The notes beneath the pieces are model-generated. The model saw nothing but the letters and a program-made list of their open reading frames with translations. It had not been told where the DNA came from and did not search any database. A program made the position numbers and the translations under genes. Shown here piece by piece: positions 11,653 to 62,218 of a stretch of DNA of 64,000 bases. This DNA comes from Chloroflexota bacterium. GTDB taxonomy: Bacteria > Chloroflexota > UBA11872 > UBA12225 > JAJDUF01. Where the stretch lies: positions 1,949,255-2,013,254 of the forward strand of contig OZ250185.1 of NCBI GenBank assembly GCA_965238265.1. The letters are read 5' to 3'. The number at the start of each line of letters is the position of its first letter. The stretch's first letter is position 1.

Positions 11653-14600
11653 ATGAACCGCAGCGGGCAGAACATTGTTGTCGGGGCTCTCGTCCAATGG
11701 ACAGGCGCGAAAACATACGGGGTAGTCACCAACATTGATGACGGGGTAATCCATGTCCGATGGGATGAAGCAGGTCTCCCACCCCAATTTGCGGTCAGGA
11801 ACGCCCCGCTACTGCGGATTGAAGTGGGAGGTGAAGTTGTCCAACGGAGATCGACCGGGGAGATTGCAGCTGTCCAAGGCCCGGTGGACGTGGAGCCACC
11901 AACCTGGCAGTGCGTCATCACCGGTTCTGGTAGTCCAGTTAGAGCCAACGTGCCGGAGGCAGACCTGCGCCCCATACCTATCACCGATCCCGTTGACTGA
12001 TTCGAGGCGAGCCACATTGGCTCACTCCGGCAGTATCGTCTCCAGGAGGTCACACGGTGGTACCGGGCGCTGCATCTTCACAACGATCTCGTGTCCCTCG
12101 GAAATGCTCGGGTGGATATTAAGCCCCATCAAGTGGGGGTTGTGCATAGAGTAGTAACCAACTACCCTCACCGCTTCCTGTTATGCGATGAGGTTGGTTT
12201 GGGAAAGACGATTGAAGCAGGGATGGCACTTAAGGAACTCCGGACCAAAGGCGGTGCCCAGCGGGTTCTAGTCATTGTTCCGCCTAACCTGGTTCGTCAG
12301 TGGCAGTTCGAGATGAAGACGAAGTTCAATGAGATTTTCTCAGTGCTGGACACCAACACTGTCCAGTTTTTGAGGAATCAAGGCCAGGTGGGTAATCCCT
12401 TCACCTACTCGGACAGTGTTCTATGTTCCGCAGCATGGGTTGCCCATCCGAAATGGGCGAAGTTGTGCGCCGAGGTGGACTGGGACCTCGTCATCGTAGA
12501 TGAGGCCCACCACGCCCGGAGCCGTCGTTCCGGAAACCGGGTCCAGACAACGCGCCTCTACCGGTTGGTCAGAGATCTGACGACACCGGAGCATATCACC
12601 CGAAGGGGAATGCTCTTCCTTACCGCAACGCCAATGCAGCTTGATACCCATGAACTCTATTCCCTGGTAGAGCTCCTTGACCCCGCACTCTTCCCTTCAG
12701 AGAAACACTTCGAACAGCACCTTCAAGCGGTGCCCGGCCTTTCTCAACTTGTCGAGCGCCTCCACATGCACGGATTCCCGTTCCCGGAAGAGGATCCTGA
12801 CGAAACGGTCGAGCAGGTTTCCGAGTGGCTTGGTTTGGGTGTGGATATAGCGCGCCAGCGGCTCTCTGCCGGAGAAGAGGCGCGGGAGGCACTTGCCAAC
12901 GAGTTGGCCGATCATCACCTCCTCAGTGAAGTGTTGATTCGGAACCGCAAGGCTGTGGTGGGCGGATTCATGCCTCGTGTAGCCCATCGTTGGGAGGTTG
13001 ACTTAACACCCGAAGAACGCGCGGCGTTGCGAGCCGTAGAGGATTACGTCCAGTATGGATTTCAACTTGCCGAGGGTGCCAACAACAGCGCTGTGGGATT
13101 CGTTATGGTCATTTTTCAGAAGTTGATGGCATCCAGCATTGCTGCCATCAGGGAGTCGTTAGGCAGGCGCAGGCAGAAAATCCGAACTGCCCTCGCAAGC
13201 CCGCAGTCGTCTGCGGGTGCTACTCAACTAGAGGAGAGACTGGATGATGACGACAATGCGGGTGATGTCGTCGAGATCCCCGGCGTCGCGGCTGACATGG
13301 TGAACGAGGAGCTATTCCTGCTAGACCGAGCCATCAACACCCTTGACCTAGTGAACCGCGACTCCAAATCTTGCGTACTTGTCGAGCGGCTAGCCGAGTT
13401 GTTCGATGAGCACCCTGACGAGAAGGTGCTCGTATTCACTCAGTTCCGCGAGACCCAGAGACATTTGGGAGAACTGCTCACTGCCAGAGGTTGGGGTGTT
13501 AACGTCTTTCATGGTCAAATGAAGCCTGGAGACAAGGACGACGCAGTGGAAGGTTTTAGGAACGGTGTGGGGCCCCAAGTGCTCATAAGCACCGAGGCTG
13601 GTGGTGAGGGTCGGAACTTCCAATTCTGCCACCTGCTCGTCAACTACGATCTGCCGTGGAATCCTATGCGAGTCGAACAGCGTATCGGTCGAGTGGATCG
13701 TATCGGCCAGGACCATACGGTCAGTATCTTCAACCTCTGGGTCAAAGACACCATAGAGGAGCGCGTTCTCGACGTGCTGGAGAATCGAATTAGAGTGTTC
13801 GAGGAAACCGTAGGGGGTCTTGATCCTATCCTCGGCGAGGCCGAGAACGACATACGGAAAATCATGCGTATTGCTGATGAAGAACGGGAAAAGCCCTTGA
13901 GGAGTTTGGCAAGCAGTTGGAAGGGCAGGTCCGCCGCGCCCGGGATGCAGAGGGGAAACTTGGCGACTTCATCATGGACACGAAGTCTTACCGGCGACAA
14001 CTCGCCGAGCGCATCGCCGGGCAGCCTTCACCGATCAACAATGATGATCTTGATAGGTTTATAAGAGAGCTTCTCGCCAGTGTACGCACCTACATCAAGC
14101 GAAATGGTGATTTTTATGAGCTGACCTTCCATGGCGAAATTCTTGACACCTTAAGGACACATTTCGCCGGCGGACCCAAGCGAAAGGCGGTGTTCCGACC
14201 TGACCGCCGTCCCGACTCGGATGATGTCGAGTTTGCGGCATTCGGCCATCCGATCGTGGACGCAATAGTTACACAAGTACTTGATGAGGGCTACGAGGGA
14301 GTGACAGGCACCCGCCGCATTCCTGCTGGCGACGATCTCGCCCCCCAGTCTGGATGGCTCTTCACCTACCAGTTCACTATCCCTGGTCCGCAGTCCACCG
14401 AACGTCTCGTGCCGGTCTTCATGCACGACAATGGTGAAGTGGATGTGGAGACAGGACACCACATCGTGCAACGTGCCTATCGGTTTGACAGGAATGAGCA
14501 GGAGATGCACCCTTCCGAGATTCCCGACAACCTCCGCGAGATTGAGCCACAGGCGAATCGGTTTGCCAATGCCGAGAGGGAAGCGGCCCAGCAGCAGGCT

Positions 14601-14915
14601 GAGACTCAGGCCGCCGAGCGTTTCAACCGGGAAATCGCTCGTCTTGAGGCATGGTTCGACTATCGGGAACGCGCCGCCAGTGACCGTGTGGAGGCTACCA
14701 GCGCTACCCTGAATCGACTCCGCGAGAGCGATGACGAGTCGCAGCGCCAAATTTTGCCCGTCTGGGAGGCTAATCTCCGACGGGACAAGGAACTGCTCGG
14801 TAATCTCACCGAAGAGCGTCGCCGCCGGATTGATGAAGCTGAGAGATATCGTCACCCTCAAGTCGATTGGGTGCTGAAGTCGCTGGGCCGCATTGAGGTG
14901 GTGGCTCCCAACTAA
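11653..14915 (+). pseudogene. rapA: RapA/HepA-like SNF2-family ATPase (RNA-polymerase-associated protein homologue). It is disrupted by an in-frame TGA at 11998-12000 and by a frameshift near 13886-13893. It lies in a lower-GC islet directly 3' of tRNA-Phe.
   Basis: ORF 11653..12000 has a tandem Tudor/KOW-like N-terminal domain (VGALVQWTGAKTYGVVTNIDDGVIHVRWDE) comparable to the E. coli RapA N-terminal domain. After the TGA the same frame continues into the ATPase core: [37 protein letters not shown] (compare E. coli RapA [37 protein letters not shown]), a DEAH box (LVIVDEAHHARS) and helicase-C motifs (QRIGRVDRIGQ). The C-terminal 330 aa continue in a different frame (ORF 13917..14915) after the homopolymeric run gggaaaag. 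Confidence 0.8.
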
Positions 14916-14999
14916 CGGGACTCGGCGGCCTGACGCTTTCACTACCCGACCCGGCGGATAGCTTCCCATCCTCTGCTGCGGCGAGTTGGCCGCGCTTGC

Positions 15000-15668
15000 T
15001 CATTCTGCCGCCATGGTCGGTGCCGACCGTGCCCACCGGATGGCAGCGGCGATAAAGAACAGGCCCATGGCCACGAGAAACGCGCCAGCGAGACCGACAA
15101 CGAACCGGTAGACCTCAGCGTCGAAGAGCTGCTGTCCGGCGATGAGGAGCAATGCGATCAGCACGTACCAACCGAAGTCGGCCGCGATATGGCCAATATA
15201 AAAGGCGCCCAGTGCCAGGTTCCCGCCGCGGTGGAGCGCCAAGGCCGTGTAGCTGGCGCCGACCGTTGCCCACCAGAGCACCCAATAGGGATTACTCACG
15301 CTCACGACGATGCCCGTGAGAATAGGCAGGGCCGCAGCCGGGGCGGCTTGCGCCTCGCCAAGGTGAACGGCGCCAGTCCAGGCGGCCCGCGCAAGATCGG
15401 CTCCCAACACGATCAGGGCGATGCCACCGAGCGCCGCAATCGTCCGCAGGACCGTAGGGTGTCGGATCGCCCGTGCCAGCCCCCGGGCCAGGGCCAGCAC
15501 CACGAGCAGTTCGAGCAAGGCGTGTCCGAGCACGAGCAGCGGCGCCGCCCAGAATCCGGTGCGGGCGACATCGCCGATCACCGCTGTGAGTAGGGGTCCC
15601 GGTGCGACGGCGCCGGACAAGCCTACGAGCAGTGAGGTGGCGAAAAGGCCCCAGGTAGCTCTCATCAT
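15000..15668 (-). CDS. LysE/RhtB-family amino-acid exporter
   Basis: It is about 220 aa with six TM segments and an N-terminus typical of LysE-type translocators. Confidence 0.65.
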   Translation of the reverse strand: MMRATWGLFATSLLVGLSGAVAPGPLLTAVIGDVARTGFWAAPLLVLGHALLELLVVLALARGLARAIRHPTVLRTIAALGGIALIVLGADLARAAWTGAVHLGEAQAAPAAALPILTGIVVSVSNPYWVLWWATVGASYTALALHRGGNLALGAFYIGHIAADFGWYVLIALLLIAGQQLFDAEVYRFVVGLAGAFLVAMGLFFIAAAIRWARSAPTMAAE

Positions 15669-15699
15669 TCGTCTGCTATCGTCCCTCGCCGTTGGGTGT

Positions 15700-15860
15700 G
15701 CCGACGCATCAGGCGACGGCCCGTCCCATCGTCACTCCGGCGAAAGCCGGAGTCCAGTAGCCGGGGGAGGTGGATTCCGGCTTGCGCCGGCACGACGGCC
15801 TCCCTATGGCCCCCCCGCTGCGGCAGGGGGACGGCGCTTCCCTCCCCGCCACACCACTAT
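15700..15860. repeat. mosaic intergenic repeat element, composed of a tcactccggcgaaagccggagtcc hairpin, a ggtggattccggcttgcgccgg hairpin and a G-rich module (cccccccgctgcggcagggggacggcgcttccctcccc)
   Basis: The same modules recur at 18600-18690, 31818-31868, 56190-56240 (reverse-complement orientation) and 63850-63910. Confidence 0.75.
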
Positions 15861-15943
15861 CCTGTCTATCCTGCTCATCCATGTTTGAGTCGTGGTGGCT
15901 GCTAGAATGGCCGCGCCGCCTTGTCCCATAAGGAGGTAGCACA

Positions 15944-17131: not shown

Positions 17132-17176
17132 CCCAGCATGGTAGTACCACTGATCTAGGCTCTGTTGACATTCCTC

Positions 17177-17261
17177 GGTCATTCCCGCTTGCGCGGGAAT
17201 CCAGGGCGGGCGCGATGGCTACGGCCCCAGGTGCCTGGATTCCGGCCTCCGCCGGAATGAC
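17177..17261. repeat. composite repeat made of two dRS3-like hairpins in opposite orientation (ggtcattcccgcttgcgcgggaatcc ... ggattccggcctccgccggaatgac)
   Basis: Seen directly. The architecture resembles the elements at 59228-59302 and 40476-40582. Confidence 0.8.
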
Positions 17262-17305
17262 GGGAGGGGACACCATGAATGACACTCCTACCTGGTGGTC
17301 AGGTG

Positions 17306-18463: not shown

Positions 18464-18718
18464 GATGCATTGTCTCGTACACGAGTCTCCGGCTCCCAGG
18501 GGCGGTGCCGGATAAGCAAGGGGCGATGTGAGCCACAGAGCACACGGAGCGCACAGAGGATAGCAGCCCCGGACAAGCGCCCGTCCCCTGTGGCTTGCCA
18601 TGGGTGGGACCGCCCCCCTATGGTCCTCCCGCTGTGCAGGGGGACGGTGCTTCCCTCCCCTGTGCGTCAGCACGGGGGAGGGCCAGGGTGGGGGCCACTA
18701 ACCACTCGCCACACGCCC

Positions 18719-30054: not shown

Positions 30055-30196
30055 TGGCGCACCTCATATAGATTCTATAGCACGGCCTGCCGTCCGGTGT
30101 CCGCCTCACCCCCGGGGCCCTCTCCATCGCCAAGCGATAGAGAGGGGGAGTCTGCCGGAGACGGGCAGGGGTGGAAGGGTAGCCCGCGCGCCGCCC

Positions 30197-30221
30197 GTCA
30201 TTCCCGCGAAAGCGGGAATCC
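30197..30221. repeat. dRS3-like palindromic repeat (cgtcattcccgcgaaagcgggaatcc)
   Basis: A perfect 10-bp inverted repeat was seen directly. Confidence 0.85.
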
Positions 30222-30304
30222 AGGCCGACCGGGGTGCCATGCAGCGCACCATCTCCGTGCTCTCTGTGTGCTCTATGGCGAAAAAACCTTCCAGGGCCGC
30301 TGAC

Positions 30305-32896: not shown

Positions 32897-33109
32897 ATGA
32901 CGACGACATCCCCACCACTTGACCCCGAGTCCCTGGTGGCTCGCATCATCGGCGAACTGCAAGCGACCCCTGGCGCTCAGACGCTGTTGCTGCGCGCCTT
33001 GCTCACCAACGAGTTTCGGGGTATGCCGCTACGCTTGGAGCGTATCGAGGCCGATGTCCGCGAGCTTACGGCTCGCAGGAGGCGCATCGAACCCACATGG
33101 GGCGCTTAG
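32897..33109 (+). CDS. hypothetical small protein (70 aa), the first gene of a two-gene lower-GC cassette
   Basis: The ORF has a promoter-like TATAAG 6 nt upstream of its ATG, and its stop overlaps the ATG of the next ORF. Confidence 0.4.
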   Translation: MTTTSPPLDPESLVARIIGELQATPGAQTLLLRALLTNEFRGMPLRLERIEADVRELTARRRRIEPTWGA

Positions 33110-33561
33110 AAGCCGACCTCGCGGTCCTCAAGGTAAACATGCCGGATGAGAGGCTCTATCGATGGATTCGCTCGCTTCTCATATGCAGACTTGACCTGCG
33201 CCGGTCACGGGTGATGCAGAGTCCGGTGTCGGACACCAGCCCCGAGCTGTACGAGCCAGTTGAAGAAGCCTTTGACAATGGTGTCATCACCGACGCGCAG
33301 GAAACCCGCATCAGTACGACGGACATCATTCTTCGCGCCCAACGCAAGGCTGACCGCTCCCCGGTCTGGGTGGCCGTCGAAGTCTCCAACGACATCAGCC
33401 AACGCGACATCGAGCGGGTGCGGCAGTCCGCCGATGCCCTGAGCGTCGTACTCCAACAGGACACCATGGCGGTCGTTGCCGGCTATCGCCTCCATTCCCA
33501 GGACCAGGAGCGAGCGCGCAAGGCTGAGGTGGTTGCGCTCGTCATCGGGGAGAACGGATAG
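33097..33561 (+). CDS. hypothetical protein (154 aa), possibly a PD-(D/E)XK-like (Uma2/DUF820-like) fold
   Basis: The segment PVWVAVEVSNDISQRD resembles the PD...EV(L/V)SPS core of Uma2-type putative endonucleases. The match is weak. Confidence 0.35.
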   Translation: MGRLEADLAVLKVNMPDERLYRWIRSLLICRLDLRRSRVMQSPVSDTSPELYEPVEEAFDNGVITDAQETRISTTDIILRAQRKADRSPVWVAVEVSNDISQRDIERVRQSADALSVVLQQDTMAVVAGYRLHSQDQERARKAEVVALVIGENG

Positions 33562-34759: not shown

Positions 34760-34996
34760 ATGGGGATGCTAGACTGGAACATGGGGAGCATACGCATGGA
34801 TAGAGTGGAGAAGTCTCGGCCGGCGTGGTTAGTTGCGTTGTTGGAAGAGTTGCACACACCCCTTTCGGCCGCGGACAGGGCAGCACTACACGAGGCCGGC
34901 CGGTGTATGGATGCCCACCGGGTCAAGCTGGGTCCCGGAGCCAAAGTCCCGGAGATGGTTCGAGCCGAGCGCGGTACCGGCTATGAGGGCGTTTGA
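34760..34996 (+). CDS. putative antitoxin, partner of the downstream PIN-domain gene
   Basis: It is a small ORF whose 3' end overlaps the start of the vapC-like gene by 14 nt, which is typical toxin-antitoxin organisation. The assignment rests on context only. Confidence 0.35.
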   Translation: MGMLDWNMGSIRMDRVEKSRPAWLVALLEELHTPLSAADRAALHEAGRCMDAHRVKLGPGAKVPEMVRAERGTGYEGV

Positions 34997-35441
34997 GACG
35001 TACCGGCACATCGTCCCCGACACCAGTGTAGCTGGGAAATGGTACTTGGACGATGAATCGCTCGTTCAGCGGGCCCGGCTGCTTTTCAGATCTGTCGAAA
35101 CTGGGGAGATGCGTGCTATTGTGCCGTCCTGTTTCTGGTACGAACTTGGTGGCCTCGTGCGCTGATCGGAGCGACGGCGGCGGATATCAGGTACTGCGGC
35201 GGACAGGATCATGCGCGATATTCAGCGCTTGCGTCTGCCTGAGCTTGACTGCCATCTGCTCCTCGTGGATGCACACGATGTATCGCGCGCCTTCGACGTA
35301 TCGCTCTATGATGCTTTCTTTCTTGTCACGGCTACCCTGACAGACTCGGCCCTCATTACAGCCGACTTGCCCCTTTATGCTAAGGCGCAAGTGACCGGAA
35401 ACGTCTACTTACTACAGGATGTTCCCCTGCCAACGGAGTAG
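34983..35441 (+). pseudogene. vapC: VapC-like PIN-domain toxin interrupted by an in-frame TGA (35163-35165)
   Basis: The N-terminal half of the PIN domain (MRAFETYRHIVPDTSVAGKWYLDDE) sits in ORF 34833..35165, and the C-terminal half (LLLVDAHD ... YDAFFLVTATLTDSALITAD) in ORF 35211..35441. Both halves are in the same frame and are separated only by the TGA. Confidence 0.65.
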
Positions 35442-40446: not shown

Positions 40447-40582
40447 GGGGCACGATGAATCGTGCCCTGGCGGTCGTCATTCCGGTTTGTGCCGGAATCC
40501 ACATCCTCCTCCCATCTCGTCATTCCGGCCTTGAGCCGGAATCCAGCGGCGGGGCATGGATTCCCGCTTTCGCTGGAATGAT
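40447..40582. repeat. composite intergenic repeat: the hairpin gggcacgatgaatcgtgccc, followed by three dRS3-like hairpins (gtcattccggtttgtgccggaatcc; gtcattccggccttgagccggaatcc; ggattcccgctttcgctggaatgat)
   Basis: Seen directly. The stems differ from one another by complementary, paired base changes. Confidence 0.85.
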
Positions 40583-40633
40583 GGGCGGCGCGGCATATTG
40601 ACATCCCGTTGACATCGCAGGGAGGCAAAGTAC

Positions 40634-45216: not shown

Positions 45217-46275
45217 GTGGGGCGGGGATGCGGCAAAGCCGTCACCGGAGGAGAAAGAAACTTGCTGACTACGGCGACACCGGCACCGCCGCCGAGCCGC
45301 CCGGCTCGGGCTGTCTTCATGGGCACGCCCGACTTCGCCGCCGTCATCTTGCGGCGCCTGCTGCAACGGCCGGACCTGGTGACGGTGGCAGCAGCGGTTA
45401 CTCAGCCGGATCGCCCGGCCGGGCGGGGACGTCGTCTTGAGCAACCGCCGGTGAAAGTGGAGGCGGCGCGCGCTGGCGTCGAGGTGGTCCAGCCCGTGAG
45501 TGTCCGCCGCCCACGGTTTGCGGAGTGGCTACAACGCTTGGCGCCCGACCTGCTGCTTGTAGCGGCGTATGGGAAGATTCTGCCGCCGGCAGTCCTGGCG
45601 ATACCGCCGCGCGGTGCGCTCAACGTGCATGCGTCGCTCTTGCCCCGCCATCGCGGTGCCTCACCGGTGAGTGCTGCCCTGCTCGCCGGCGACACAGTGA
45701 CCGGCGTCTCGCTCATGCTCATGAACGAGACGATGGATGCCGGCCCGGTCCTGGCCACGGCCGCAGAGCCGATTGCTCCCGATGACACCACCGAGACGCT
45801 GACGGCCCGGTGGTCCTCGCTGGGCGCTACGCTGCTCCTCGACACCCTCCCGCCGTGGCTTGCCGGCGCGGTGACGGCACAGCCGCAGGACAGCGGCCAA
45901 GCCACCTACTGCCGCCCCCTGCGGCGCGATGATGGCCGGCTGCTCTGGGACGAGCCGGCCGAGCACCTAGCCCGCCAGGTGCGGGCAATGATCCCGTGGC
46001 CCGGCGCCTACACCTATTGGGCCAAGCGCCAGCTCAAGGTGTGGGTGGCCCGGGCGCTCCCTATGGATGTCGACAGCCCAACGCCGCCCGTGCCCGGCAC
46101 GGTCGTCGAGCAGGGCCGCAGACCGGCGGTGGTGTGTGGCGAGGGCCTCCTAGCCCTGGACCAGGTGCAACTCGCCGGACGGTGCCGGATGGCCGCAGCA
46201 GACTTCCTCCGTGGACAGCGTGCCTTTGTCGGGGCACGGCTCTCCGCCAGCGACCCCAGCTCATTGCAGCGGTAG
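45217..46275 (+). CDS. fmt: methionyl-tRNA formyltransferase
   Basis: FMGTPDFAA is followed by the formyltransferase core (NVHASLLPRHRGASP). The true start is uncertain: the ATG at 45217 gives a 34-aa leader before FMGTP. Confidence 0.85.
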   Translation: MGRGCGKAVTGGERNLLTTATPAPPPSRPARAVFMGTPDFAAVILRRLLQRPDLVTVAAAVTQPDRPAGRGRRLEQPPVKVEAARAGVEVVQPVSVRRPRFAEWLQRLAPDLLLVAAYGKILPPAVLAIPPRGALNVHASLLPRHRGASPVSAALLAGDTVTGVSLMLMNETMDAGPVLATAAEPIAPDDTTETLTARWSSLGATLLLDTLPPWLAGAVTAQPQDSGQATYCRPLRRDDGRLLWDEPAEHLARQVRAMIPWPGAYTYWAKRQLKVWVARALPMDVDSPTPPVPGTVVEQGRRPAVVCGEGLLALDQVQLAGRCRMAAADFLRGQRAFVGARLSASDPSSLQR

Positions 46276-46817
46276 GGGGGGGCCATGACTCCCCTTCCCT
46301 GCCAGGGAAGGGGTCGGGGGTTAGGTGCAGTACGGCTTATCCCTACTTGACGCCGAGCGCCGGTTCGTCTTGCCAGGTCGGCGCGACGTGAACAGTAGCG
46401 CCGGGTGTCGGGGGCTGCCGGCGGCCCGCGTGCGTCGTAGTGCGTATGGGTGGGCGAGCGGTGGGGTGTCACGGTCAGGTAATACACCGCCGGCTCGTCA
46501 CCGGCGCAGCTGACGCGGTGCTTTTCGTGTGGCCAGGCAACGACGGCCTGACCGGCCGTGGCGATCACCGTCTCGTCCTCGATCTCGAAGCGTACCGCGC
46601 CTGAGCGCAGCTGACCGGTGCTTTTCGTGTGGCCCAAGACGACCCACACCTCGATGCCGCCGGATTCTTCGTGGCTGTGGAAGCTCCCTAGCTCCGCGCC
46701 CGGTTCGGTGCGAATGAACCGCGCCCGCACCTCGGGGACGGCCACGGCCGTGCCCATCGGGTCATCGCGCCAATCGAACGTTCTGGCTGGCATAGTCGAA
46801 ACTCCTTCCCTCACCAA
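46014..46817 (-). CDS. cupin-domain protein; the 3' boundary is doubtful
   Basis: The first 130 codons form a cupin-like beta-barrel (GIEVWVVLGHT ... VRFEIEDE ... AVYYLTV). The ORF then runs for another 130 low-complexity codons and overlaps the 3' end of fmt by about 260 nt, which suggests a frameshift or an over-extended ORF. Confidence 0.45.
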   Translation of the reverse strand: MVREGVSTMPARTFDWRDDPMGTAVAVPEVRARFIRTEPGAELGSFHSHEESGGIEVWVVLGHTKSTGQLRSGAVRFEIEDETVIATAGQAVVAWPHEKHRVSCAGDEPAVYYLTVTPHRSPTHTHYDARGPPAAPDTRRYCSRRADLARRTGARRQVGISRTAPNPRPLPWQGRGVMAPPYRCNELGSLAESRAPTKARCPRRKSAAAIRHRPASCTWSRARRPSPHTTAGLRPCSTTVPGTGGVGLSTSIGSARATHTLSWRLAQ

Positions 46818-53770: not shown

Positions 53771-56143
53771 TTAGCTTGCTGCCCGCGGGGCGGCCAATGG
53801 CGAGCCGGCAGGCACGCCCTCTTCCACCAGGATGAGCGGCGAGCCGCCGACGTAGTAGTAGCCCGGAGGGTCCCCGCCGAACAGGTCGAAGTGGCGCGAA
53901 GCGGCTGCTAGCTCAATGGACCAATACGCCCGGCCATCAACGGTGACGGGCCGGATGATCTTCGCCGCGCCGTCCTTGCTGACGAGCCAGCCATGTACGC
54001 CCACCTTGGGCACCAGCACCGTGATCGGGGTGCCGGCGCCGTTCCATAGCACGGTTGAGCGTTGGATGCCGCCGGCAATGGCACGCTCGAAGATGCCGGC
54101 GTGAACGTGCCATGTGAACCGCGGTGTGTACTGGGACCACCTCGCCACCGGATCATCGGCCCGCTCTAGCACCTCCAAGCCGCGTGGCGTGGCGTTACCC
54201 AGGAAACGGGCGACCGTCTGGAAGGCGGTGAACGCCGGCCGTTGCCGCGACGCCGCGACGTTATTCGGATCATCGTGGAAGCGCACCAGGCCCCAAAGCT
54301 CATCGAACTGCCGCCCACCAAGAGCTGGGTACCTATCGTCCTGGAGCGCGTGGAAGAACATCCGCTCGTAGCCGGCCAAGCGGCCCAACGTAAGTGCCTG
54401 GATGACGAAGGAGGCCTGCTCATCCATCGTGATGCGGAAGCCGTCATTGGCGATCTGTGTATCCCACCCCGGCACGTTGGCGTCATCGAACGGCATGGCG
54501 TTGAACTCGGCCAACCAGATGGGCTTGCCGGCGAGGCCGATGTCAGCGAGCCGCTGCGCGAAGCCGCTGCGGTTGGGCGGTAGCAACGCCACCTCGCCGC
54601 CGCCGTGTACACGATCCCACAGATCATGCGGATTCCGGTAAATGTTGAGCGCGAGGGCGTCGAAGAAGCCACCGTTCGCCGGCGCTGCCGGGTCGGCCTT
54701 GACCTGCGCCATGAACGCCGCAAACCACGGCAGCCGTTGCTCGCCGCCTTCCTGCATGTCGCGGTGGTAGCTGTACGGTGCGACGATCACCTGCGCGTTG
54801 GGATTGCCCCGCTTGGCCGCAGTGTAGGCTGTCTTCAGCAGTTGGTAGTACTGCGCTGCCGAGCCGGCAAACGTCGAGTAGATCGCATTGGGGCCGGAGG
54901 GGGGGATTTCCACTTCGTTCCAAATCGCCCAATGGTCAATCGTACCCGCACACTCGCGGGCAATTGCCGCGACAAACCGTGCCCACTTCGCCATATCGGG
55001 CACGCTATGTGTGCCGTCTGCCGGATTGGTGGCTGCGAAGTCGGGGGTGCCGATCAGCAGGCCCAGCATTTTGACGTTCGCGGCCTTCAGTCCGTCGTTG
55101 ACCCACGGACAGCCACGGATACCGCTGAAGTCGCCATCGGATCGCTCGGCGCCGGACCAGAAGATGACCGACCGGGTCCAGCCCGCGCCGCTCTGGGCCA
55201 GAAAACCGGAGGCTGCATAGCCATCGTTGACGCCAAGCCAATCGGCGCGTACTTGCGCCGCCGGGGGCGCGTGCGGCTCCGCCGCCTGCGGCGGTGGGGC
55301 CGGTGCGGCCGTAGGAGCCGGTGGCGCTGGCCTTAGCGCGACGCTGGTCGCCGCCTCCGGCTTGAGCGGCGTTGCCGCCCACGTGGGGAAGAGGCCGGCT
55401 TCCTTGGCGAGGCCCCCGCCAAGCACAATCGTCACCGTACCCGCTGCCGCCCACGGCACGTCCTGCTGCCAATACTGGAACGCGGCCCGCTGCCCGCGCA
55501 CGACGACCACGTGGCCGTAATCCTTGATCCCCATCGGGAAGCCGTGGTGGTTCAGCCATTGCGGGTTGGCCAGGAATCGCCCTTCCAGCGCTTGCCGGGC
55601 GGCGCGCATCGTCGCACTGTCGCTGGCCCGGGGCGCGAAGATCGTTGTGAGGTGATTCTCGGTGATACTGCCGGGGCCACTGAAGGGTCGTCCCTGGTCG
55701 CTGGACCAGTCAAAGCTGGACGGAATCTGCTTGAAGGTCTCCAGCCACTCGTCCCGACCGGCGGCGTGGAGCAGGTCGAAGACGTTGGCCAGGCTCATGG
55801 TGCCGGTGATGGTATTCCATTGCAGCAGTGCCCGCTGGGTGACCTGATAGGTAAACGGGCCGTCTTGGTAGGGGTGGGAAGCGGGGTAGCCCAGCGCCGC
55901 GATCCCACCGAGCGCCGTGAATTGGCTAAAACAGGGGCAGCTGGTGGTATCGCGGATGGCAAACCCAAAACCGGCCGGGTGGTCGCCGCGGGTCTGGGTG
56001 TAGAAGTGACCGTCGGCCAGGGCGAAGTCGTCACCCGCGGACTGCGCGGCAGCGGGCGCCACGGCCAGCAGTGCAGTGAGCAACAGCGCCGCCAGCAACG
56101 CTCCGACGAACGGCAGTCGGCGGACTATTCTGCCCCAAGCCAT
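53771..56143 (-). CDS. secreted clan GH-A glycoside-hydrolase-like protein (790 aa)
   Basis: A signal peptide (LLAALLLTALLAVAPAAAQSA) is present, together with the motif IDHWAIWNEVEIP, which fits the GH5 N-E-[PV] signature. Confidence 0.6.
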   Translation of the reverse strand: MAWGRIVRRLPFVGALLAALLLTALLAVAPAAAQSAGDDFALADGHFYTQTRGDHPAGFGFAIRDTTSCPCFSQFTALGGIAALGYPASHPYQDGPFTYQVTQRALLQWNTITGTMSLANVFDLLHAAGRDEWLETFKQIPSSFDWSSDQGRPFSGPGSITENHLTTIFAPRASDSATMRAARQALEGRFLANPQWLNHHGFPMGIKDYGHVVVVRGQRAAFQYWQQDVPWAAAGTVTIVLGGGLAKEAGLFPTWAATPLKPEAATSVALRPAPPAPTAAPAPPPQAAEPHAPPAAQVRADWLGVNDGYAASGFLAQSGAGWTRSVIFWSGAERSDGDFSGIRGCPWVNDGLKAANVKMLGLLIGTPDFAATNPADGTHSVPDMAKWARFVAAIARECAGTIDHWAIWNEVEIPPSGPNAIYSTFAGSAAQYYQLLKTAYTAAKRGNPNAQVIVAPYSYHRDMQEGGEQRLPWFAAFMAQVKADPAAPANGGFFDALALNIYRNPHDLWDRVHGGGEVALLPPNRSGFAQRLADIGLAGKPIWLAEFNAMPFDDANVPGWDTQIANDGFRITMDEQASFVIQALTLGRLAGYERMFFHALQDDRYPALGGRQFDELWGLVRFHDDPNNVAASRQRPAFTAFQTVARFLGNATPRGLEVLERADDPVARWSQYTPRFTWHVHAGIFERAIAGGIQRSTVLWNGAGTPITVLVPKVGVHGWLVSKDGAAKIIRPVTVDGRAYWSIELAAASRHFDLFGGDPPGYYYVGGSPLILVEEGVPAGSPLAAPRAAS

Positions 56144-56266
56144 ACAGTCTTCTCCAAAGCCCCCACCCTAACCCTCCCCCGTTGCGACAGGGGAGGGAAG
56201 CGCCGTCCCCCTGCCGCAGCGGGGGGACCATAGGGGGCCCGGCCTCTCTGCGACCGGATCACGGCA

Positions 56267-56593: not shown

Positions 56594-56716
56594 CAGTCCT
56601 CCTCATAGGTGGTACCGCCCGGCTACGGAGTAGGTTGCCCGGTAGCGGGCTGCGTTGGGCTACAGCGCCTAGTGCCCGCCTCTGGCTTGAACAGGGGTCT
56701 GCACCACTGACCTCCA

Positions 56717-58138
56717 TTAGGATTGTGCAGACCTGGCGGGCAGTGGTGAGCGGCGCCCACGTACCGTTGCCATCACCTCGCAGAGCCGGTCGAGACTTTC
56801 CAGGTTATGCGCCGGCAGGAACTCGTCAACGTAGGGCAGCGCCGCTTGCAGCCCACGGGTCAAGGGCCGGTAGCCGGGCATCCCGAGCAGCGGATTGAGC
56901 CAGAAGAGCCGGTAGCTTGCCCGCTGGAGGTAGGCCACTTCTTGCCGGAGCTGCTCCACGTCGCCACGATCCCAGCCGTCGCTGATGAGTAGTACGAGTG
57001 CGCTCCGACCGAGCACGCGCCGTGCCCAGTGGCGATTGAAGTGGCCTACTGAATCGCCTATGCGGGTACCACCGGACCAGTCGTGGACAACGTCCGATAC
57101 CGCTGCCAGCGCATCGTGAGGGCGGCGCTGGTGTAGTTGGTGCGTGATATTGGTGAGGCGGGTGCTGAACACAAACGCTTCGACCCGCGGCAATTGCTGG
57201 CGCGCAGCATGAAGGAATTGCAGCAACATGCTCGAATAGATGCTCATGGAGCCGCTGACGTCGCAGAGTAGGACGAGTGGACGCGGCTTCTCCGCACGAG
57301 CGCGTTTTTTCCAGGTGACAAGCTCCCCGCTCGTGCGTAGACTGTGCCGGATACTCCGCCGTAGGTCGAGGCGGCCCCGCACCGAGGGCCGCAGCCGGCG
57401 CGTCAAGCGCGGCGCCAGGCGCATCCCCAGCCGGGTCATCAGCTGCTGGACAACGCGCTGTTCGTGCCGATCAAGGTCGCTGAAGTCACGCCGCCGCAAG
57501 ACTTCCGCGGCACTATAGGTACCACTGCGATCCACGCCGTCAACTTCGTCGGCAGCTTCCTGCGACCCGTCCTCGCTGACGCCGTCCTCGCTCTGACCGG
57601 CAGCCTCCACCGCCAAGCGGCGCAGCTGCTCTTGCTGCTTGCTGCCAGCCGGCGTGCCGTCGGTATCGGGGTTGCTAATGTCGCCGCCCGCCTTCTTCAG
57701 CTCCGAAGTCGCTTCGCCATTGGTGGAGTCTGGGAGCGTCCCCGGATCAACGCTATAGCCCTCGGCCAACCGGGGACCAAAGAACTGGGCAAACACCAGG
57801 TCGAATCGCGCCTGGTCCTGATGTTGGGTCAGCAGGGTTACTTGCGCCGTGTGGTAGAGGTCATCCCGGCGCCGCAAGCCCGTGTGCTCGACCGCTTGCA
57901 GCAGGCTCGTGGCCTGGCCCGGCGCCACCGCCACGCCTGCCCGGTGGAGCGCACGGGCAAAGCGCACCAGATGCTTCATCAGCGCACTGCCGGCCGCCGC
58001 ACTGCCGGCTTCGAGTGCCAGGACATCGCTCGATAGCTCCGGCGGTAGGCAAGGGTGCAGTTGAATGGCAGTGGTCAGCGGTCTGTCCGGGCCACCGGCC
58101 ACCGGCCACCGGCCACTGACGTTGTGCGTTTCTGGCAT
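56717..58138 (-). CDS. VWA-domain protein (CoxE-like)
   Basis: The MIDAS motif (LLCDVSGSMS) is present and the gene is adjacent to a MoxR ATPase. Confidence 0.8.
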   Translation of the reverse strand: MPETHNVSGRWPVAGGPDRPLTTAIQLHPCLPPELSSDVLALEAGSAAAGSALMKHLVRFARALHRAGVAVAPGQATSLLQAVEHTGLRRRDDLYHTAQVTLLTQHQDQARFDLVFAQFFGPRLAEGYSVDPGTLPDSTNGEATSELKKAGGDISNPDTDGTPAGSKQQEQLRRLAVEAAGQSEDGVSEDGSQEAADEVDGVDRSGTYSAAEVLRRRDFSDLDRHEQRVVQQLMTRLGMRLAPRLTRRLRPSVRGRLDLRRSIRHSLRTSGELVTWKKRARAEKPRPLVLLCDVSGSMSIYSSMLLQFLHAARQQLPRVEAFVFSTRLTNITHQLHQRRPHDALAAVSDVVHDWSGGTRIGDSVGHFNRHWARRVLGRSALVLLISDGWDRGDVEQLRQEVAYLQRASYRLFWLNPLLGMPGYRPLTRGLQAALPYVDEFLPAHNLESLDRLCEVMATVRGRRSPLPARSAQS

Positions 58139-58139
58139 G

Positions 58140-59165
58140 TCAGCTTCCCGTGACGGCGTTGACGAGGCTCTTGAGCCGCTGGCCCCGGATATGGGCCATG
58201 TCTTCTTGGTGCTTCACCAGGGTACCGAGAGTGGCGTCGGCGTCATCGTAGCCGACCCGCCGCACGCCTAGCTCCACCAAAGCGCCGGCCCAGTCGAGTG
58301 TTTCGGCGATCCCCGGGACTTTGTACAGCTCTTCCTCGCGCAGGGCCTGGACAAACGCCGTGACCTGCCGCGCCAAGGTGTCGGCGATGTCGGGTACCCG
58401 CGTTTCCACGATGCGTAGCTCTTTCTCGAACGTGGGGTACTCGATCCAGTGATAGAGACACCGGCGCTTCAGCGCGTCGTGCAGCTCGCGCGTGCGGTTC
58501 GACGTGATAACGACACGCGGCGGCTTATCGGCGTGGATGGTGCCGATCTCCGGCACGGTGACTTGGTAGTCCGCCAGCATCTCCAGCAGGAAGGCGTCCA
58601 GCTCGTCGTCCGCCCGGTCTATCTCGTCTACCAGAAGTACCGGGGGCGCGTCGTCGGCACCGGTCTCCAGCGCCTGCAAGAGCGGTCGCCGCACCAGGAA
58701 CTCGGGGCTGAAGAGGTCCTTCAGCCGGCTCTCCTGCGCGCTCCCTTGCGCTTCCAGGAGTCGGATGTGGAGCATCTGCCGGCTGTAGTTCCATTCGTAG
58801 ACCGCCTGGTGGATATCCAGCCCCTCGTAGCATTGCAGCCGGATCAGTCGCCCTCCCGTCGCGGTAGCCAGCACCTTGGCCACCTCGGTTTTGCCAACGC
58901 CCGCTTCCCCTTCCAAGAGCAGCGGCTTGGGCAGCCGCATCGCCAGGAAGATCGCCGTGGCGAGCGCGCGGTCGGTCACGTAACGCTGGCCGGCGAGCGT
59001 ATCCTGCACCTGCTCGATGGACTCGGGCGTCGGCGGAAGGGGGGCGGAGGTGGTAGCTTGGGGCGACGTAACATCGGCTTCACTCGCATTCATGGTGGCC
59101 ACTGTACCAAATCTACACCCACTCGCCGATCCACCAGCTAGGCGCCGTTGACATTGCCCGGTCAT
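58140..59165 (-). CDS. MoxR-family AAA+ ATPase (CoxD-like)
   Basis: Walker A (GEAGVGKTEVAK) and Walker B (LLVDEIDRA) are present, and the length is about 320 aa. Confidence 0.9.
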   Translation of the reverse strand: MTGQCQRRLAGGSASGCRFGTVATMNASEADVTSPQATTSAPLPPTPESIEQVQDTLAGQRYVTDRALATAIFLAMRLPKPLLLEGEAGVGKTEVAKVLATATGGRLIRLQCYEGLDIHQAVYEWNYSRQMLHIRLLEAQGSAQESRLKDLFSPEFLVRRPLLQALETGADDAPPVLLVDEIDRADDELDAFLLEMLADYQVTVPEIGTIHADKPPRVVITSNRTRELHDALKRRCLYHWIEYPTFEKELRIVETRVPDIADTLARQVTAFVQALREEELYKVPGIAETLDWAGALVELGVRRVGYDDADATLGTLVKHQEDMAHIRGQRLKSLVNAVTGS

Positions 59166-59227
59166 GGCCGCGCCATTTCCCCGTTATTGCTCTGAAAATA
59201 GCCCCATCCGCCACGCCCGCCCTATCC

Positions 59228-59302
59228 GTCATTCCCGCGTAAGCGGGAATCCAGGGCCGGCACGCCGGCTGCGGCCCTTGGCCTGGATTTCGCCGGAATG
59301 AC
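59228..59302. repeat. composite repeat: the dRS3-like hairpin gtcattcccgcgtaagcgggaatcc, followed by the half-element ggatttcgccggaatgac
   Basis: Seen directly. Confidence 0.8.
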
Positions 59303-59318
59303 GCAATCGGATACCGTC

Positions 59319-59723
59319 CTATCGTTGGTCGTCTGCGCTTGAGTCTGCGCTCGCTGCCCTTCTGATCTTGCCGAGCGCCATTTCGATCAGGCCAACGGCA
59401 GCGATGCCGACGATGACGTGGGCCGCGAGCACGGCCATGTAGACCTGTCCACTCGTCCACAGGCCGAGGAACAGCGTGAGGCCGAGGGCAAAGGGTAGCA
59501 GGGGCCACCACCAAGCGATGCCGGCCGGGCCGCCGAGCGCCTGGGCGCCGGCGCTGGCTGCCCGCCGCGTCCACGGCCCGAGCACGACACCGGCCAGCAC
59601 GACGGTGCCCAGACCGAACAGCAGATGCAGCCAGTGCCACAAGTCGCCGCCGACGTTCCCGGTAAGGAGGCCCAAACCCAGGAAGAAGGTAGCGATAGCC
59701 ACGATCCGCAGAACTATTCCCAC
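59319..59723 (-). CDS. small hypothetical membrane protein (four TM segments)
   Basis: The ORF is hydrophobic. No family was recognised. Confidence 0.4.
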   Translation of the reverse strand: MGIVLRIVAIATFFLGLGLLTGNVGGDLWHWLHLLFGLGTVVLAGVVLGPWTRRAASAGAQALGGPAGIAWWWPLLPFALGLTLFLGLWTSGQVYMAVLAAHVIVGIAAVGLIEMALGKIRRAASADSSADDQR

Positions 59724-59912
59724 ACGTCAGCTCCTCTCAGTGGTGACAACTCCGCGCAGCAGTGTCCGACGCCGGCCTACCTTAACAAGGTTGGCGGAGA
59801 GCGTCAACGTGCCGGGGTCCTCCCGTCCGCCCCGAGTCAGCCGCTTGATGGTATGGTGATGCACACTTGGCGGTCGGGAAGCCTGGAGCAAGACCTGAAG
59901 AATGGAGCGGCT

Positions 59913-61046
59913 ATGAAGATAACGAACGTTACCGCTTACCCGGTACACGATGGGAAGGATGCGCTCTTTGTGGTCGTGGACACGGACGCCGGCCTCAGCG
60001 GCGTGGGTGAGGCCGGGGCGACACCGCAGCTGCTCGCCATCGCCGCCTACGTCGAAGGCCACCTCAAGCCGTTCCTGCTCGGTGAAGACCCGTTTCGCAC
60101 GGAGCACCTGTGGCAGCGGATGTTCCGCGGCGGCTTCTTCCCCGGCGGCGTCGTGGTGTCGAGCGCCGTATCGGCCATAGACATTGCGCTGTGGGACATC
60201 AAGGGCCAGGCGCTAGGTGTGCCCGTGTATGAGCTGCTGGGAGGCCGCGCCCGTGACCGGGTCGTGTGCTATCCCCATAACGGCGGTGGCAGCGTCGAGG
60301 CGCTGGTCGAGAGCTGCCTACGCACGAAGGAGCAGGGCTGGAAGTTCGTCCGCTTCAGCCCGAATACTGCGGGCGATCTGTTCGAGCCGGCGCGGGCCGT
60401 GCGCGAGTCGATTGCCATGGTCGAAGCGGTACGCAATGCCGTCGGCGACGACATCGAAATCTGCTTCGATGTCCATACCCGGCTGGACCCCGCCGATACG
60501 ATCCGGTTCTGCCGCGCGGTCGAGCCTTACCATCCCTTCTTTATCGAAGACCCCATCCGCAGCGAGAACGCGGCTTCATTCCACCACTTGCGCCGCCATG
60601 TGTCGGTCCCGCTCGCAGCGGGCGAGCAGTACGCCAGCAAGTGGGAGTTCCGCGAGTTGATCGAGAACGACCTGATTGACTACGCCCGCACCGATCTCTG
60701 CATCGTCGGCGGGATTACGGAAGCCAAGAAGGTCGCCGGCTGGGCCGAAACTCACTACATCAAGCTGGCCACGCACAATCCGCTGGGGCCGGTTTCATCC
60801 GCCGCCTGTCTCGCGCTCAATCTGGCGAGCAACAACGTTGGTGTGATGGAGCAGCCCCAGAAGCCGGGTACGGCGCTGACCAACGTGGTGCCGGTGCAGA
60901 TGACCTGGGAAGACGGCTACCTGCTCCCGCCGGAGCGGCCGGGGCTGGGTGTGGTATTCGACCGCGAGGCGGCTGCGCGCCTGCCCTATCGCCCCGGAGC
61001 ACGATCCCACCTCCACCGCGAGGACGGCTCTTTCACCAACTGGTGA
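59913..61046 (+). CDS. enolase-superfamily enzyme (mandelate racemase / muconate lactonising enzyme; D-galactonate / D-mannonate dehydratase-like)
   Basis: MKITNVTAYPV starts the N-terminal capping domain, and metal ligands lie in the barrel (DVHTRLD, EDP). Start was taken at the ATG at 59913. Confidence 0.8.
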   Translation: MKITNVTAYPVHDGKDALFVVVDTDAGLSGVGEAGATPQLLAIAAYVEGHLKPFLLGEDPFRTEHLWQRMFRGGFFPGGVVVSSAVSAIDIALWDIKGQALGVPVYELLGGRARDRVVCYPHNGGGSVEALVESCLRTKEQGWKFVRFSPNTAGDLFEPARAVRESIAMVEAVRNAVGDDIEICFDVHTRLDPADTIRFCRAVEPYHPFFIEDPIRSENAASFHHLRRHVSVPLAAGEQYASKWEFRELIENDLIDYARTDLCIVGGITEAKKVAGWAETHYIKLATHNPLGPVSSAACLALNLASNNVGVMEQPQKPGTALTNVVPVQMTWEDGYLLPPERPGLGVVFDREAAARLPYRPGARSHLHREDGSFTNW

Positions 61047-61165
61047 TGCTAAATTGACCATGTGCGGCGGCGGCCCACTCACTGCCAAGGAAGGGGAGTC
61101 CTGATGCTCGGTCGGCTAGGGGCCGCCTGCTTGGCAGGTAGGGGGAATAAACAGGGCTGGACAGG

Positions 61166-62218
61166 ATGGGAGAGAAGAACGAGACGGTGAAGGTGACCAA
61201 GAGACGGGTAGCGATGGGTGTAGTGGCGCTAGTGGCGCTGCTAGTAGTGGGGTGTGAGTCGGAGGGGACCGCGCCGGCTGCGAAGCCGGGCGGTGAGGTG
61301 GCGCCGGTGGCGCCGACGGCTGTGCCTCCGAAAGCTACGGCGACGATGGACACGGCACTGTCAGTGGTGAAGTATGTGTCTTGGTGTAGCTCGCTCACTA
61401 GCTCGCTCACACGGGACGAGAATAGCGAACAAGCGACGGTTACTTACGGGGAGATTAGGGGAATCTTCGCTAGTGCGTTGAAGGAGTATCAGAACGTCGT
61501 CCCGCCAGATGACCTGCGATCATACCACGCGGGTATGCAGTCTACGTTGCAGCTTGCGCTTGGCTCGATCAAGGACTTCCCAGACAGTCAACAAGTCGGG
61601 TTCGAGGCGCTAGGATGGGCACTGTTGGTTGAGGCGGCACAAGAAGCTGCTGTGGAGACTATACCCGCAGCGCTTCGAGGCAGGCTTGAAGATGCTGGAT
61701 GTATGCATTTAGTTTCTAGCGAGGGGGATGGTGAAGAGTTTACGACGGCGGCTTCTACCTCAGAGCCGACGCCAACCCCTGTTCCTGTGGGTGTGTCTGC
61801 GAGTGCGCCCGACGGATGGAAAATCCGCGTGAACGGTACTCTGTGAGGAGACCAGGCGCAACTCACGTTGGTTGCTTACAAGCGGCAGAAAAACCACAAC
61901 TATCGAGTGCCTACGCCCGAAGCTGGAAGGCAGTTCGTACTTGTGCATGTCACCATGCAACGAGATGGTGCCAGCCCTGATCGTCCGAATACCGGAGAGT
62001 TCGGGATTTTCGGCGATGAGAAGGTGATCTACAACACCGAGTTCCATGGGGATGAAGTAGTACCAGAAAGTCTGATATCTGCAAACAGGGTGCTACAAGG
62101 AGGCTCGGTGAGTGGCAATCTGCTTTTTTCCATCCCCCTATCCGAGAAGGGACAGCTAACTTTGCTGTACGGTGACAGTGAGTATCTCTTCGCTTTCGAG
62201 ACACCTAAAGAACAGTAG
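61166..62218 (+). pseudogene. lipoprotein with a DUF4352-like domain, interrupted by an in-frame TGA (61844-61846); lower-GC DNA
   Basis: A lipobox (LLVVGC) is present. ORFs 61166..61846 and 61868..62218 are in the same frame, and the peptide reads continuously across the stop (GWKIRVNGTL*GDQAQLTLVAYK). Confidence 0.6.

What the first reader, a model, noticed from the sequence alone, without database searches (positions are those of the whole stretch)
11998..61846. Three lower-GC genes are each interrupted by exactly one in-frame TGA, with the peptide continuing in the same frame
Three genes show the same pattern. In the rapA-like gene the TGA is at 11998-12000, giving PITDPVD*FEASHIG ... IKPHQ. 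In the vapC-like gene it is at 35163-35165, giving FWYELGGLVR*SERRRRISG ... LLLVDAHD. In the DUF4352 lipoprotein it is at 61844-61846, giving GWKIRVNGTL*GDQAQLTLVAYK. In all three the domain architecture runs straight through the stop with no frameshift. All three interruptions are TGA, and all three genes sit in lower-GC, apparently acquired DNA. The host clearly uses TGA as a stop: the ABC ATPase ends with an ATGA overlap at 4986-4988. Two explanations are possible. One is three independent nonsense mutations, with the TGA bias expected from G/C mutational pressure. The other is acquisition from a donor lineage that reads TGA as a sense codon (code 4 or code 25-like). The possibility of natural read-through is a third, less likely reading. 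No convincing bacterial SECIS hairpin follows any of the three sites.
Basis: seen in the sequence. Interest (0 to 1): 0.65.

Follow-up and report, generated by a model that had tools for sequence, protein, structure and literature searches.

The report
Three Arg-to-stop pseudogenes, not recoding
The three in-frame TGA codons are real, but each is an ordinary arginine-codon-to-stop mutation in a dispensable accessory gene that is decaying in this Chloroflexota population, not a sign of an alternative genetic code.

Summary
TGA sits in frame at 11998, 35163 and 61844, inside an SNF2 helicase gene, a PIN (VapC-like) toxin gene and a DUF4352 lipoprotein gene. All three genes have about 56-57% GC, against 66% for the rest of the window.

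The recoding interpretation is not supported. In intact homologues the stop position is Arg in all three genes, never Trp or Gly. The codon is CGA in strains more than 99.7% identical (genes 1 and 3) and in a related species (gene 2). Each TGA is therefore one C-to-T transition from CGA.

The stops arose at different times. Gene 1's is seen only in this genome. Gene 3's is in some strains. Gene 2's is in every close strain examined.

Each gene is also broken independently elsewhere:
- PIN: a 252-bp deletion in a sister species.
- DUF4352: a 1-bp deletion in a strain that still has CGA.

TGA ends 12 of 44 called genes. Forty other genes (15,213 codons) carry no in-frame stop. No SECIS or other downstream structure was found.

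One oddity remains: all three being CGA-to-TGA is unlikely under a simple mutation model (4-16% per event), and CpG hypermutation does not explain it.

The parts
11653..14915 (+). SNF2-family (RapA/DrmD/BrxH-like) helicase gene. In this genome it is a pseudogene with two lesions. The intact form is 1087 aa.
   Evidence: Pfam finds SNF2-rel_dom and Helicase_C. P0001 is an intact 1087-aa version, and the strain contig L001 is 99.94% identical in DNA. L010 is also intact.
11998..12000 (+). Premature TGA in the SNF2 gene, derived from CGA (Arg116).
   Evidence: Strains L001, L010 and L012 have C at 11998. The column is Arg in 112 of 115 homologues, inside a conserved P-x-x-R-F motif.
13886..13888 (+). 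A 1-bp deletion in a G run (GGGG in the other strains, GGG here) that shifts the SNF2 gene from frame 1 to frame 3.
   Evidence: Because it lies in a homopolymer, a long-read assembly error cannot be excluded.
34983..35441 (+). PIN-domain (VapC-like) toxin gene, 152 codons, interrupted at codon 61.
   Evidence: Pfam PIN scores 28.2 bits against a cut-off of 23.6. Intact 152-aa orthologues P0124 and P0125 lie at the syntenic site between the GT2 and ABC genes, and so does L014.
35163..35165 (+). Premature TGA in the PIN gene at an Arg position.
   Evidence: Relatives have CGA (L014) or CGG (L002, L003). The same TGA is present in the independent assemblies L006 and L007.
34760..34996 (+). Intact 78-aa upstream ORF that overlaps the PIN start by 14 nt. 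It is presumed to be the antitoxin partner.
   Evidence: ORF list. It is called as a gene in L003, L006, L007 and L013. It matches no family, so the antitoxin role rests on position only.
61166..62218 (+). DUF4352 lipoprotein gene (lipobox LVVGC), 351 codons, interrupted at codon 227.
   Evidence: Pfam DUF4352 scores 32.1 bits against a cut-off of 25.9. The intact 354-aa orthologue P0121 lies downstream of the same MR_MLE gene.
61844..61846 (+). Premature TGA in the DUF4352 gene, derived from CGA (Arg).
   Evidence: Strain L009 (99.7% identical) has C at 61844. L004 and L005 have CGA. L008 shares the TGA.
32897..33561 (+). A fourth disrupted gene. A coiled-coil-repeat protein is split by a frameshift into 70-aa and 154-aa ORFs. 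It shows that gene decay here is not specific to TGA.
   Evidence: It is a single 214-250-aa ORF in L002 and L003. The frameshift is shared by the window, L006 and L007.
11293..11368 (+). tRNA-Phe(GAA) immediately upstream of the low-GC SNF2 segment.
   Evidence: ARAGORN, Rfam and the GC profile.

Best explanation
The three in-frame TGAs are three separate Arg-to-stop nonsense mutations, each a C-to-T transition at a CGA codon. They lie in three unrelated, dispensable accessory genes of a Chloroflexota bacterium: an SNF2 helicase, a PIN toxin and a DUF4352 lipoprotein. The host reads TGA as stop, so each gene now yields a truncated product and is a pseudogene, or at best a leaky hypomorph. The mutations arose at different times in the lineage. 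The PIN stop is the oldest and is shared by all close strains sampled. The DUF4352 stop is intermediate and is present in some strains. The SNF2 stop is the youngest and is seen only in this genome. These lower-GC genes use CGA about three times as often as the rest of the window, which raises their exposure to this route. Shown: the ancestral codons, the strain polymorphism, the independent lesions and the use of TGA as a terminator. Inferred: loss of function, and the absence of meaningful read-through.
For: Residue and codon at the stop position:
- Gene 1 is CGA in three strains at 99.85-99.94% identity, and Arg in 112 of 115 homologues.
- Gene 2 is CGA in L014 and CGG in L002 and L003.
- Gene 3 is CGA in strain L009 and in L004 and L005.

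Different ages of the three stops:
- The gene 2 TGA is in L006 and L007.
- The gene 3 TGA is in L008 but not L009.
- The gene 1 TGA is absent from L001, L010 and L012.
- One sample (ERZ25071043) has gene 1 intact but genes 2 and 3 stopped.

Independent decay of the same genes:
- A 1-bp deletion in gene 1 of the window.
- A 1946-bp IS1595-family insertion in gene 1 of L012.
- A 252-bp deletion in gene 2 of L015.
- A 1-bp deletion in gene 3 of L009.

Differences between strains are concentrated in these genes: 7 of 15 fall in gene 1 (binomial P = 0.002), and 7 of 25 fall in gene 3 (P = 0.002).

TGA acts as a stop in this host. It ends 12 of 44 called genes, including priA, lon and the ATGA-overlapped ABC ATPase gene. 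Forty other genes (15,213 codons, 71 of them CGA) have no in-frame stop.

CGA makes up 1.38% of codons in the three genes and 0.47% elsewhere. No Rfam family matches near the sites and no downstream structure exceeds shuffled controls.
Against: - All three events being CGA-to-TGA is improbable under a simple model. The expected share per nonsense event is 4-13% for ts/tv weights of 1-10, and 16% with transitions only, giving a joint probability of 0.4% or less.
- CpG hypermutation does not rescue this. CpG transitions are 19 of 44, against about 36% expected, and the CpG odds ratio is 1.09.
- Genes 2 and 3 in this window carry no second lesion, so residual function through leaky UGA cannot be excluded.
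- Both 1-bp frameshifts cited as independent lesions lie in homopolymers and could be long-read assembly errors.
- The gene 1 TGA is seen in one assembly only.
Confidence: 0.88

Rival explanations
1. The genes were acquired from a donor that reads TGA as a sense codon (code 4, TGA = Trp, or code 25, TGA = Gly), and the TGAs are relics of that code.
For: Only the lower GC of the three genes and the fact that all three stops are TGA.
Against: The homologous residue is Arg, never Trp or Gly. Each gene has exactly one TGA, while the three genes together keep 22 ordinary TGG Trp codons. Strains 99.7-99.9% identical have CGA at the same site. Genes 2 and 3 are syntenic in related species. All close homologues come from Chloroflexota-type contigs and were recovered as intact standard-code proteins.
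Confidence: 0.01
2. The TGA alleles are leaky hypomorphs rather than nulls. UGA is read at a low level by near-cognate tRNA-Trp or tRNA-Arg(UCG), the latter through a G-U pair at codon position 1. A CGA-to-TGA allele would then still yield some full-length, partly wild-type protein and be tolerated better than TAG or TAA alleles. This would explain why only Arg-to-TGA alleles are seen and why two of them persist across strains.
For: Three of three being CGA-to-TGA exceeds the 4-16% expected share, with no CpG mutational hotspot. Genes 2 and 3 have no second lesion in the window. TGA is the minority terminator here. In yeast, read-through of UGA inserts Trp, Cys and Arg (PMC4150775).
Against: The sample is three post hoc events. 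The following bases (T, T, G) and downstream folds give no read-through signal. The stop is not conserved in relatives. The same genes are destroyed outright by an IS element, a deletion and a frameshift in relatives, which indicates dispensability rather than retained function. The Arg-insertion data come from eukaryotes, not bacteria.
Confidence: 0.07
3. The interruptions are sequencing or assembly errors in a long-read metagenome assembly.
For: The gene 1 TGA and its frameshift are seen only in this assembly. The frameshift lies in a GGGG homopolymer, a typical long-read error site.
Against: The gene 2 TGA recurs in L006 and L007, from samples ERZ25068966 and ERZ25071043. The gene 3 TGA recurs in L008, and the truncated product P0126 is recorded on a 2.74-Mb contig. 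Substitution errors are rare in consensus assemblies. Gene 1 also carries three further window-specific substitutions.
Confidence: 0.03
4. This lineage carries a UGA-reading suppressor tRNA charged with Arg, which makes TGA partly synonymous with CGA.
For: Arg is at all three sites.
Against: There is no in-frame TGA in 40 other genes that contain 71 CGA codons (Fisher P = 0.012 for 3 of 22 against 0 of 71). TGA terminates 27% of genes. The only tRNA in the window is tRNA-Phe. The whole genome could not be scanned.
Confidence: 0.02

Closest known systems
Bacterial pseudogenes formed by nonsense and frameshift mutations in horizontally acquired or accessory genes
   Same: Single inactivating point mutations sit in non-core genes of atypical composition. 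Intact orthologues exist in close relatives. Different lesions hit the same gene in different strains. Substitutions are elevated in the affected genes.
   Different: Nothing essential differs. The only peculiarity is that all three nonsense events took the CGA-to-TGA route.
CGA-to-TGA (Arg-to-stop) transition, the classic nonsense route known from human disease genes and from 5-methylcytosine hotspots in E. coli lacI
   Same: It is the same one-step C-to-T change at the first base of CGA.
   Different: Those cases are driven by deamination of methylated cytosine. Here neither CpG depletion nor an excess of CpG transitions is seen, so a methylation hotspot is not supported.
TGA-recoded lineages (code 4 in Mycoplasmatales and relatives, code 25 in Gracilibacteria and Absconditabacteria)
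   Same: Only the presence of in-frame TGA inside otherwise continuous genes.
   Different: The residue is Arg, not Trp or Gly. There is one TGA per gene. TGA is a working terminator. The sites are polymorphic with CGA among near-identical strains.
Degenerating toxin-antitoxin modules (vapBC type)
   Same: A PIN toxin is inactivated while the small upstream partner ORF stays intact. The toxin is also deleted in a sister species.
   Different: The upstream ORF matches no known antitoxin family, so its role is inferred from position only.

Membership tests
Alternative genetic code with TGA as sense (code 4 or 25) | In-frame TGA aligns with conserved Trp (code 4) or Gly (code 25) in homologues. 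| tested here: not met
   Arg is at all three positions: 112 of 115 homologues for gene 1, and every available homologue for genes 2 and 3.
Alternative genetic code with TGA as sense (code 4 or 25) | TGA is not used as a terminator. | tested here: not met
   TGA ends 12 of 44 called genes, including priA, lon and the ATGA-overlapped ABC ATPase gene.
Alternative genetic code with TGA as sense (code 4 or 25) | Multiple in-frame TGAs per gene, replacing TGG or GGN. | tested here: not met
   Each gene has exactly one TGA, and the three genes together keep 22 TGG codons.
Alternative genetic code with TGA as sense (code 4 or 25) | Loss of release factor 2 and presence of a tRNA with anticodon UCA. 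| not testable with these tools
   The window holds only prfA (RF1) and tRNA-Phe.
Selenoprotein gene (UGA = Sec) | A SECIS hairpin immediately 3' of the UGA, and Cys or Sec in homologues. | tested here: not met
   There is no Rfam hit. The downstream folds have z-scores of -0.11, +0.53 and +0.36 against shuffles. Homologues have Arg.
Programmed stop-codon read-through | The stop codon is conserved across orthologues and has a stimulatory context or structure. | tested here: not met
   Orthologues and sister strains have CGA or CGG. No structure was found.
Nonsense-mutation pseudogene | Intact orthologues carry a sense codon one substitution away from the stop. | tested here: met
   CGA is in L001, L010 and L012 (gene 1), in L014 (gene 2), and in L009, L004 and L005 (gene 3).
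Nonsense-mutation pseudogene | The stop is a derived, lineage-restricted state. | tested here: met
   The gene 1 stop is seen in the window only. The gene 3 stop is in the window and L008 but not L009. The gene 2 stop is in all close strains but not in related species.
Nonsense-mutation pseudogene | Further independent lesions or relaxed constraint in the same gene. | tested here: met
   The lesions are a 1-bp deletion, an IS1595 insertion, a 252-bp deletion and another 1-bp deletion. Differences between strains are enriched in genes 1 and 3. Caveat: the two 1-bp deletions lie in homopolymers.
Nonsense-mutation pseudogene | No full-length protein is made. | not testable with these tools
   This needs proteomics or a reporter assay.

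The most novel reading that the evidence does not exclude
In this TAG-preferring Chloroflexota lineage, UGA may be a weak terminator that is partly decoded by near-cognate tRNAs, including tRNA-Arg(UCG). CGA-to-TGA alleles would then be hypomorphic rather than null and would persist preferentially. That would account for all three nonsense alleles taking a route expected in only 4-16% of nonsense events, and for two of them being shared across strains.
Probability: 0.07. Interest if true: 0.5.

Novelty: already known. Interest (0 to 1): 0.12.

Why it matters
The result closes a tempting false lead. In-frame TGA in low-GC genes of a high-GC genome looks like a footprint of code 4 or code 25 donors, but here it is ordinary gene decay. 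In practice, these three loci and the frameshifted gene at 32897-33561 should be annotated as pseudogenes. The case also shows that checking the homologous residue together with strain-level polymorphism separates recoding from nonsense mutation quickly. The remaining CGA-to-TGA excess is worth only a genome-wide pseudogene census.

Tried and rejected
- GC3-based and codon-usage scans for other in-frame stops were noisy. Antisense frames look coding in a 66% GC genome, and the three low-GC genes score poorly. Their only real candidates were normal boundaries between adjacent genes, for example TAA at 53771 between a secreted 790-aa protein and a membrane protein. I replaced these scans with a gene map transferred from near-identical strains. 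It leaves no room for further split genes apart from the frameshifted gene at 32897-33561, and 40 other genes have no internal stop.
- CpG-methylation hypermutability, tried as the cause of the CGA-to-TGA bias, is not supported.
- Looking up P0122 by exact sequence found no contig. Looking up the antitoxin-like ORF added no new strain.
- NCBIfam and PADLOC gave no family for the PIN, DUF4352 or antitoxin-like proteins.
- The SNF2 protein resembles RapA, DrmD and BrxH but scores below every curated cut-off, and no partner defence genes lie nearby. I did not file it under DISARM or BREX.
- A literature search for TAG-dominant stop usage in Chloroflexi found nothing relevant.
Full report
**Observation.** TGA is present at 11998-12000, 35163-35165 and 61844-61846.
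- Gene 1 has SNF2-rel_dom and Helicase_C domains.
- Gene 2 has a PIN domain that spans the stop.
- Gene 3 has a DUF4352 domain after the stop and a lipobox (LVVGC) near its N-terminus.
- With the stop restored to a sense codon, the three genes have 56-57% GC. Forty other genes in the window average 66.4%.
- tRNA-Phe lies just upstream of gene 1.

**The residue at the stop position.**
- Gene 1: the best homologue, P0001, is an intact 1087-aa protein with ...ITDPVD-R-FEASHIG.... Across 115 full-length homologues the column is Arg in 112, Gln in 2 and Lys in 1, within a conserved P-x-x-R-F motif.
- Gene 2: the intact 152-aa orthologues read GGLVR-R-SERRRR.
- Gene 3: the orthologues read IRVNGEV-R-GEQAQ.
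- No homologue has Trp or Gly at any of the three positions. That removes the code 4 and code 25 reading.

**The ancestral codons.**
- Contig L001, which encodes P0001, is 99.94% identical to window 1653-24915, with 14 substitutions and one gap. It has C at 11998, giving CGA.
- Strains L010 and L012 also have C at 11998.
- At the gene 3 site, strain L009 (99.7% identical) has CGA. The more distant L004 and L005 also have CGA.
- At the gene 2 site, the related species L014 (OZ241866.1, about 89% DNA identity) has CGA. L002 and L003 have CGG.
- Each stop is therefore one C-to-T transition away from an attested CGA.

**Timing and independence.**
- The gene 2 TGA is shared by L006 and L007. These are independent assemblies from other samples, 99.7-99.8% identical to the window.
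- The gene 3 TGA is shared by L008 but not by L009.
- The gene 1 TGA is absent from all three other strains.
- Sample ERZ25071043 carries gene 1 intact while genes 2 and 3 are stopped.
- These are three events of different age on one lineage, not a property inherited from a donor.
- Genes 2 and 3 also sit at the same syntenic positions in relatives with 85-90% identity: gene 2 between the GT2 gene and the ABC exporter genes, and gene 3 after an MR_MLE enolase-superfamily gene. They are long-term residents.

**Independent decay of the same genes.**
- In the window, gene 1 also has a 1-bp deletion in a G run at 13886-13888.
- In strain L012, the same gene is interrupted by a 1946-bp IS1595-family element with terminal inverted repeats, which replaces 227 bp of the gene.
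- In species L015 (OZ244848.1), 252 bp of the PIN gene are deleted.
- In strain L009, which keeps CGA in gene 3, a 1-bp deletion in a T run truncates the C-terminal end of the DUF4352 domain.
- Differences between strains pile up in these genes: 7 of 15 in gene 1 and 7 of 25 in gene 3, each with binomial P of about 0.002. A recombination tract could contribute to the gene 1 cluster, because four more differences lie just upstream at 10564-11149.
- Caveat: both 1-bp deletions are in homopolymers and could be long-read assembly errors. The IS insertion and the 252-bp deletion are not open to that doubt.

**TGA is a stop in this host.**
- Of 44 genes called in the near-identical strains, 27 end in TAG, 12 in TGA and 5 in TAA. 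The TGA-terminated genes include priA, lon and the ABC ATPase gene with the ATGA overlap.
- A gene map transferred onto the window leaves only short intergenic gaps.
- Forty other genes (15,213 codons, 71 of them CGA) have no internal stop of any kind.
- The only other broken gene is a frameshifted coiled-coil-repeat gene at 32897-33561.
- Disruption in the window is therefore not exclusive to TGA. There are three nonsense lesions and two frameshift lesions.
- No Rfam family other than the tRNA is present. The 80 nt downstream of each TGA fold no better than shuffled sequence, with z-scores of -0.11, +0.53 and +0.36. This rules out a SECIS element or a read-through stimulator.
- The release factor gene in the window is prfA (RF1). 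RF2 could not be examined.

**The remaining oddity.**
- I enumerated every single-base route to a stop codon in the three restored genes. CGA-to-TGA accounts for 4-13% of routes with transition/transversion weights of 1-10, and for 16% if only transitions count.
- The strain polymorphisms give 44 transitions to 18 transversions, a weight of about 5.
- Three of three therefore has a joint probability of about 0.1-0.4%. If one conditions on the stop being TGA, it rises to about 1-12%.
- CpG hypermutation does not explain the result. CpG transitions are 19 of 44, against about 36% expected from composition, and the CpG odds ratio is 1.09.
- Part of the explanation is exposure. CGA makes up 1.38% of codons in these genes and 0.47% elsewhere.
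- A speculative addition is that UGA alleles are tolerated best because UGA is leaky. In yeast, read-through of UGA inserts Trp, Cys and Arg (PMC4150775).
- With three post hoc events I treat this as unexplained but minor.

**Comparison with known kinds, and verdict.**
- These are ordinary bacterial pseudogenes, made by the classic CGA-to-TGA transition in dispensable accessory genes of atypical composition: a stand-alone SNF2 helicase resembling RapA, DrmD and BrxH but below every curated cut-off, a VapC-like toxin, and a DUF4352 lipoprotein.
- The source is an uncultured Chloroflexota bacterium known from several long-read MAGs.
The donor-recoding interpretation is refuted.
- Novelty: already known. 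Interest: low.

Noticed in passing
window 32897-33109 and 33097-33561 (+): A fourth disrupted gene. The two ORFs (70 aa and 154 aa) lie in different frames. In relatives L002 and L003 they form a single 214-250-aa protein with a variable heptad-like repeat (DVRELKGDV...). The frameshift is shared by strains L006 and L007.
   Followed up: partly
whole window (44 called genes): TAG is the dominant natural stop codon (27 TAG, 12 TGA, 5 TAA) in a 66% GC genome, where TGA dominance would be the usual expectation. A literature search found nothing on this for Chloroflexota.
   Followed up: partly
window 5863-5909, 11173-11225, 15763-15803, 17175-17227, 30187-30246, 40469-40509, 40553-40592, 59225-59277, 62243-62289: A family of REP-like palindromic elements (core GTCATTCCCGCG...GCGGGAATCCAGG) is scattered through intergenic gaps on both strands.
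   Followed up: no
L012 4631-6576 (corresponds to window 12427-12653): In one strain, a 1946-bp IS1595-family element replaces 227 bp of the SNF2 gene. It carries Zn_ribbon_IS1595 and DDE_Tnp_IS1595 ORFs and terminal inverted repeats GGGAATTACATACAGAACTTGAC.
   Followed up: partly
window 63901-64000; L008 13926-14037 against window 15719-15833: Collinearity with strains L008 and L009 stops at window 63901. At that breakpoint, about 115 nt of L008 resemble window 15719-15833 in reverse orientation (85% identity). This suggests a small repeated element or a rearrangement point.
   Followed up: no
window 46233-46263 and 46343-46793: There is a dense cluster of differences from L007 (12 substitutions within 31 bp). 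The cupin gene is only 91% identical to L006, although its flanks are about 100% identical. This looks like a recombination patch or a hypervariable segment.
   Followed up: no
window 11653-14915 with tRNA-Phe at 11293-11368: The SNF2 protein scores best against the BREX BrxHI and DISARM DrmD models in PADLOC and against RapA in NCBIfam, all below the curated cut-offs. It stands alone next to a tRNA gene in a 55-59% GC segment, with no partner defence genes nearby.
   Followed up: partly
window 61221-61229: Strain L008 has a 9-bp in-frame deletion in the signal-peptide region of the DUF4352 lipoprotein gene. The 223-aa product P0126, recorded on a 2.74-Mb contig, has the length this deletion would give. 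It is a further polymorphism in this decaying gene.
   Followed up: partly
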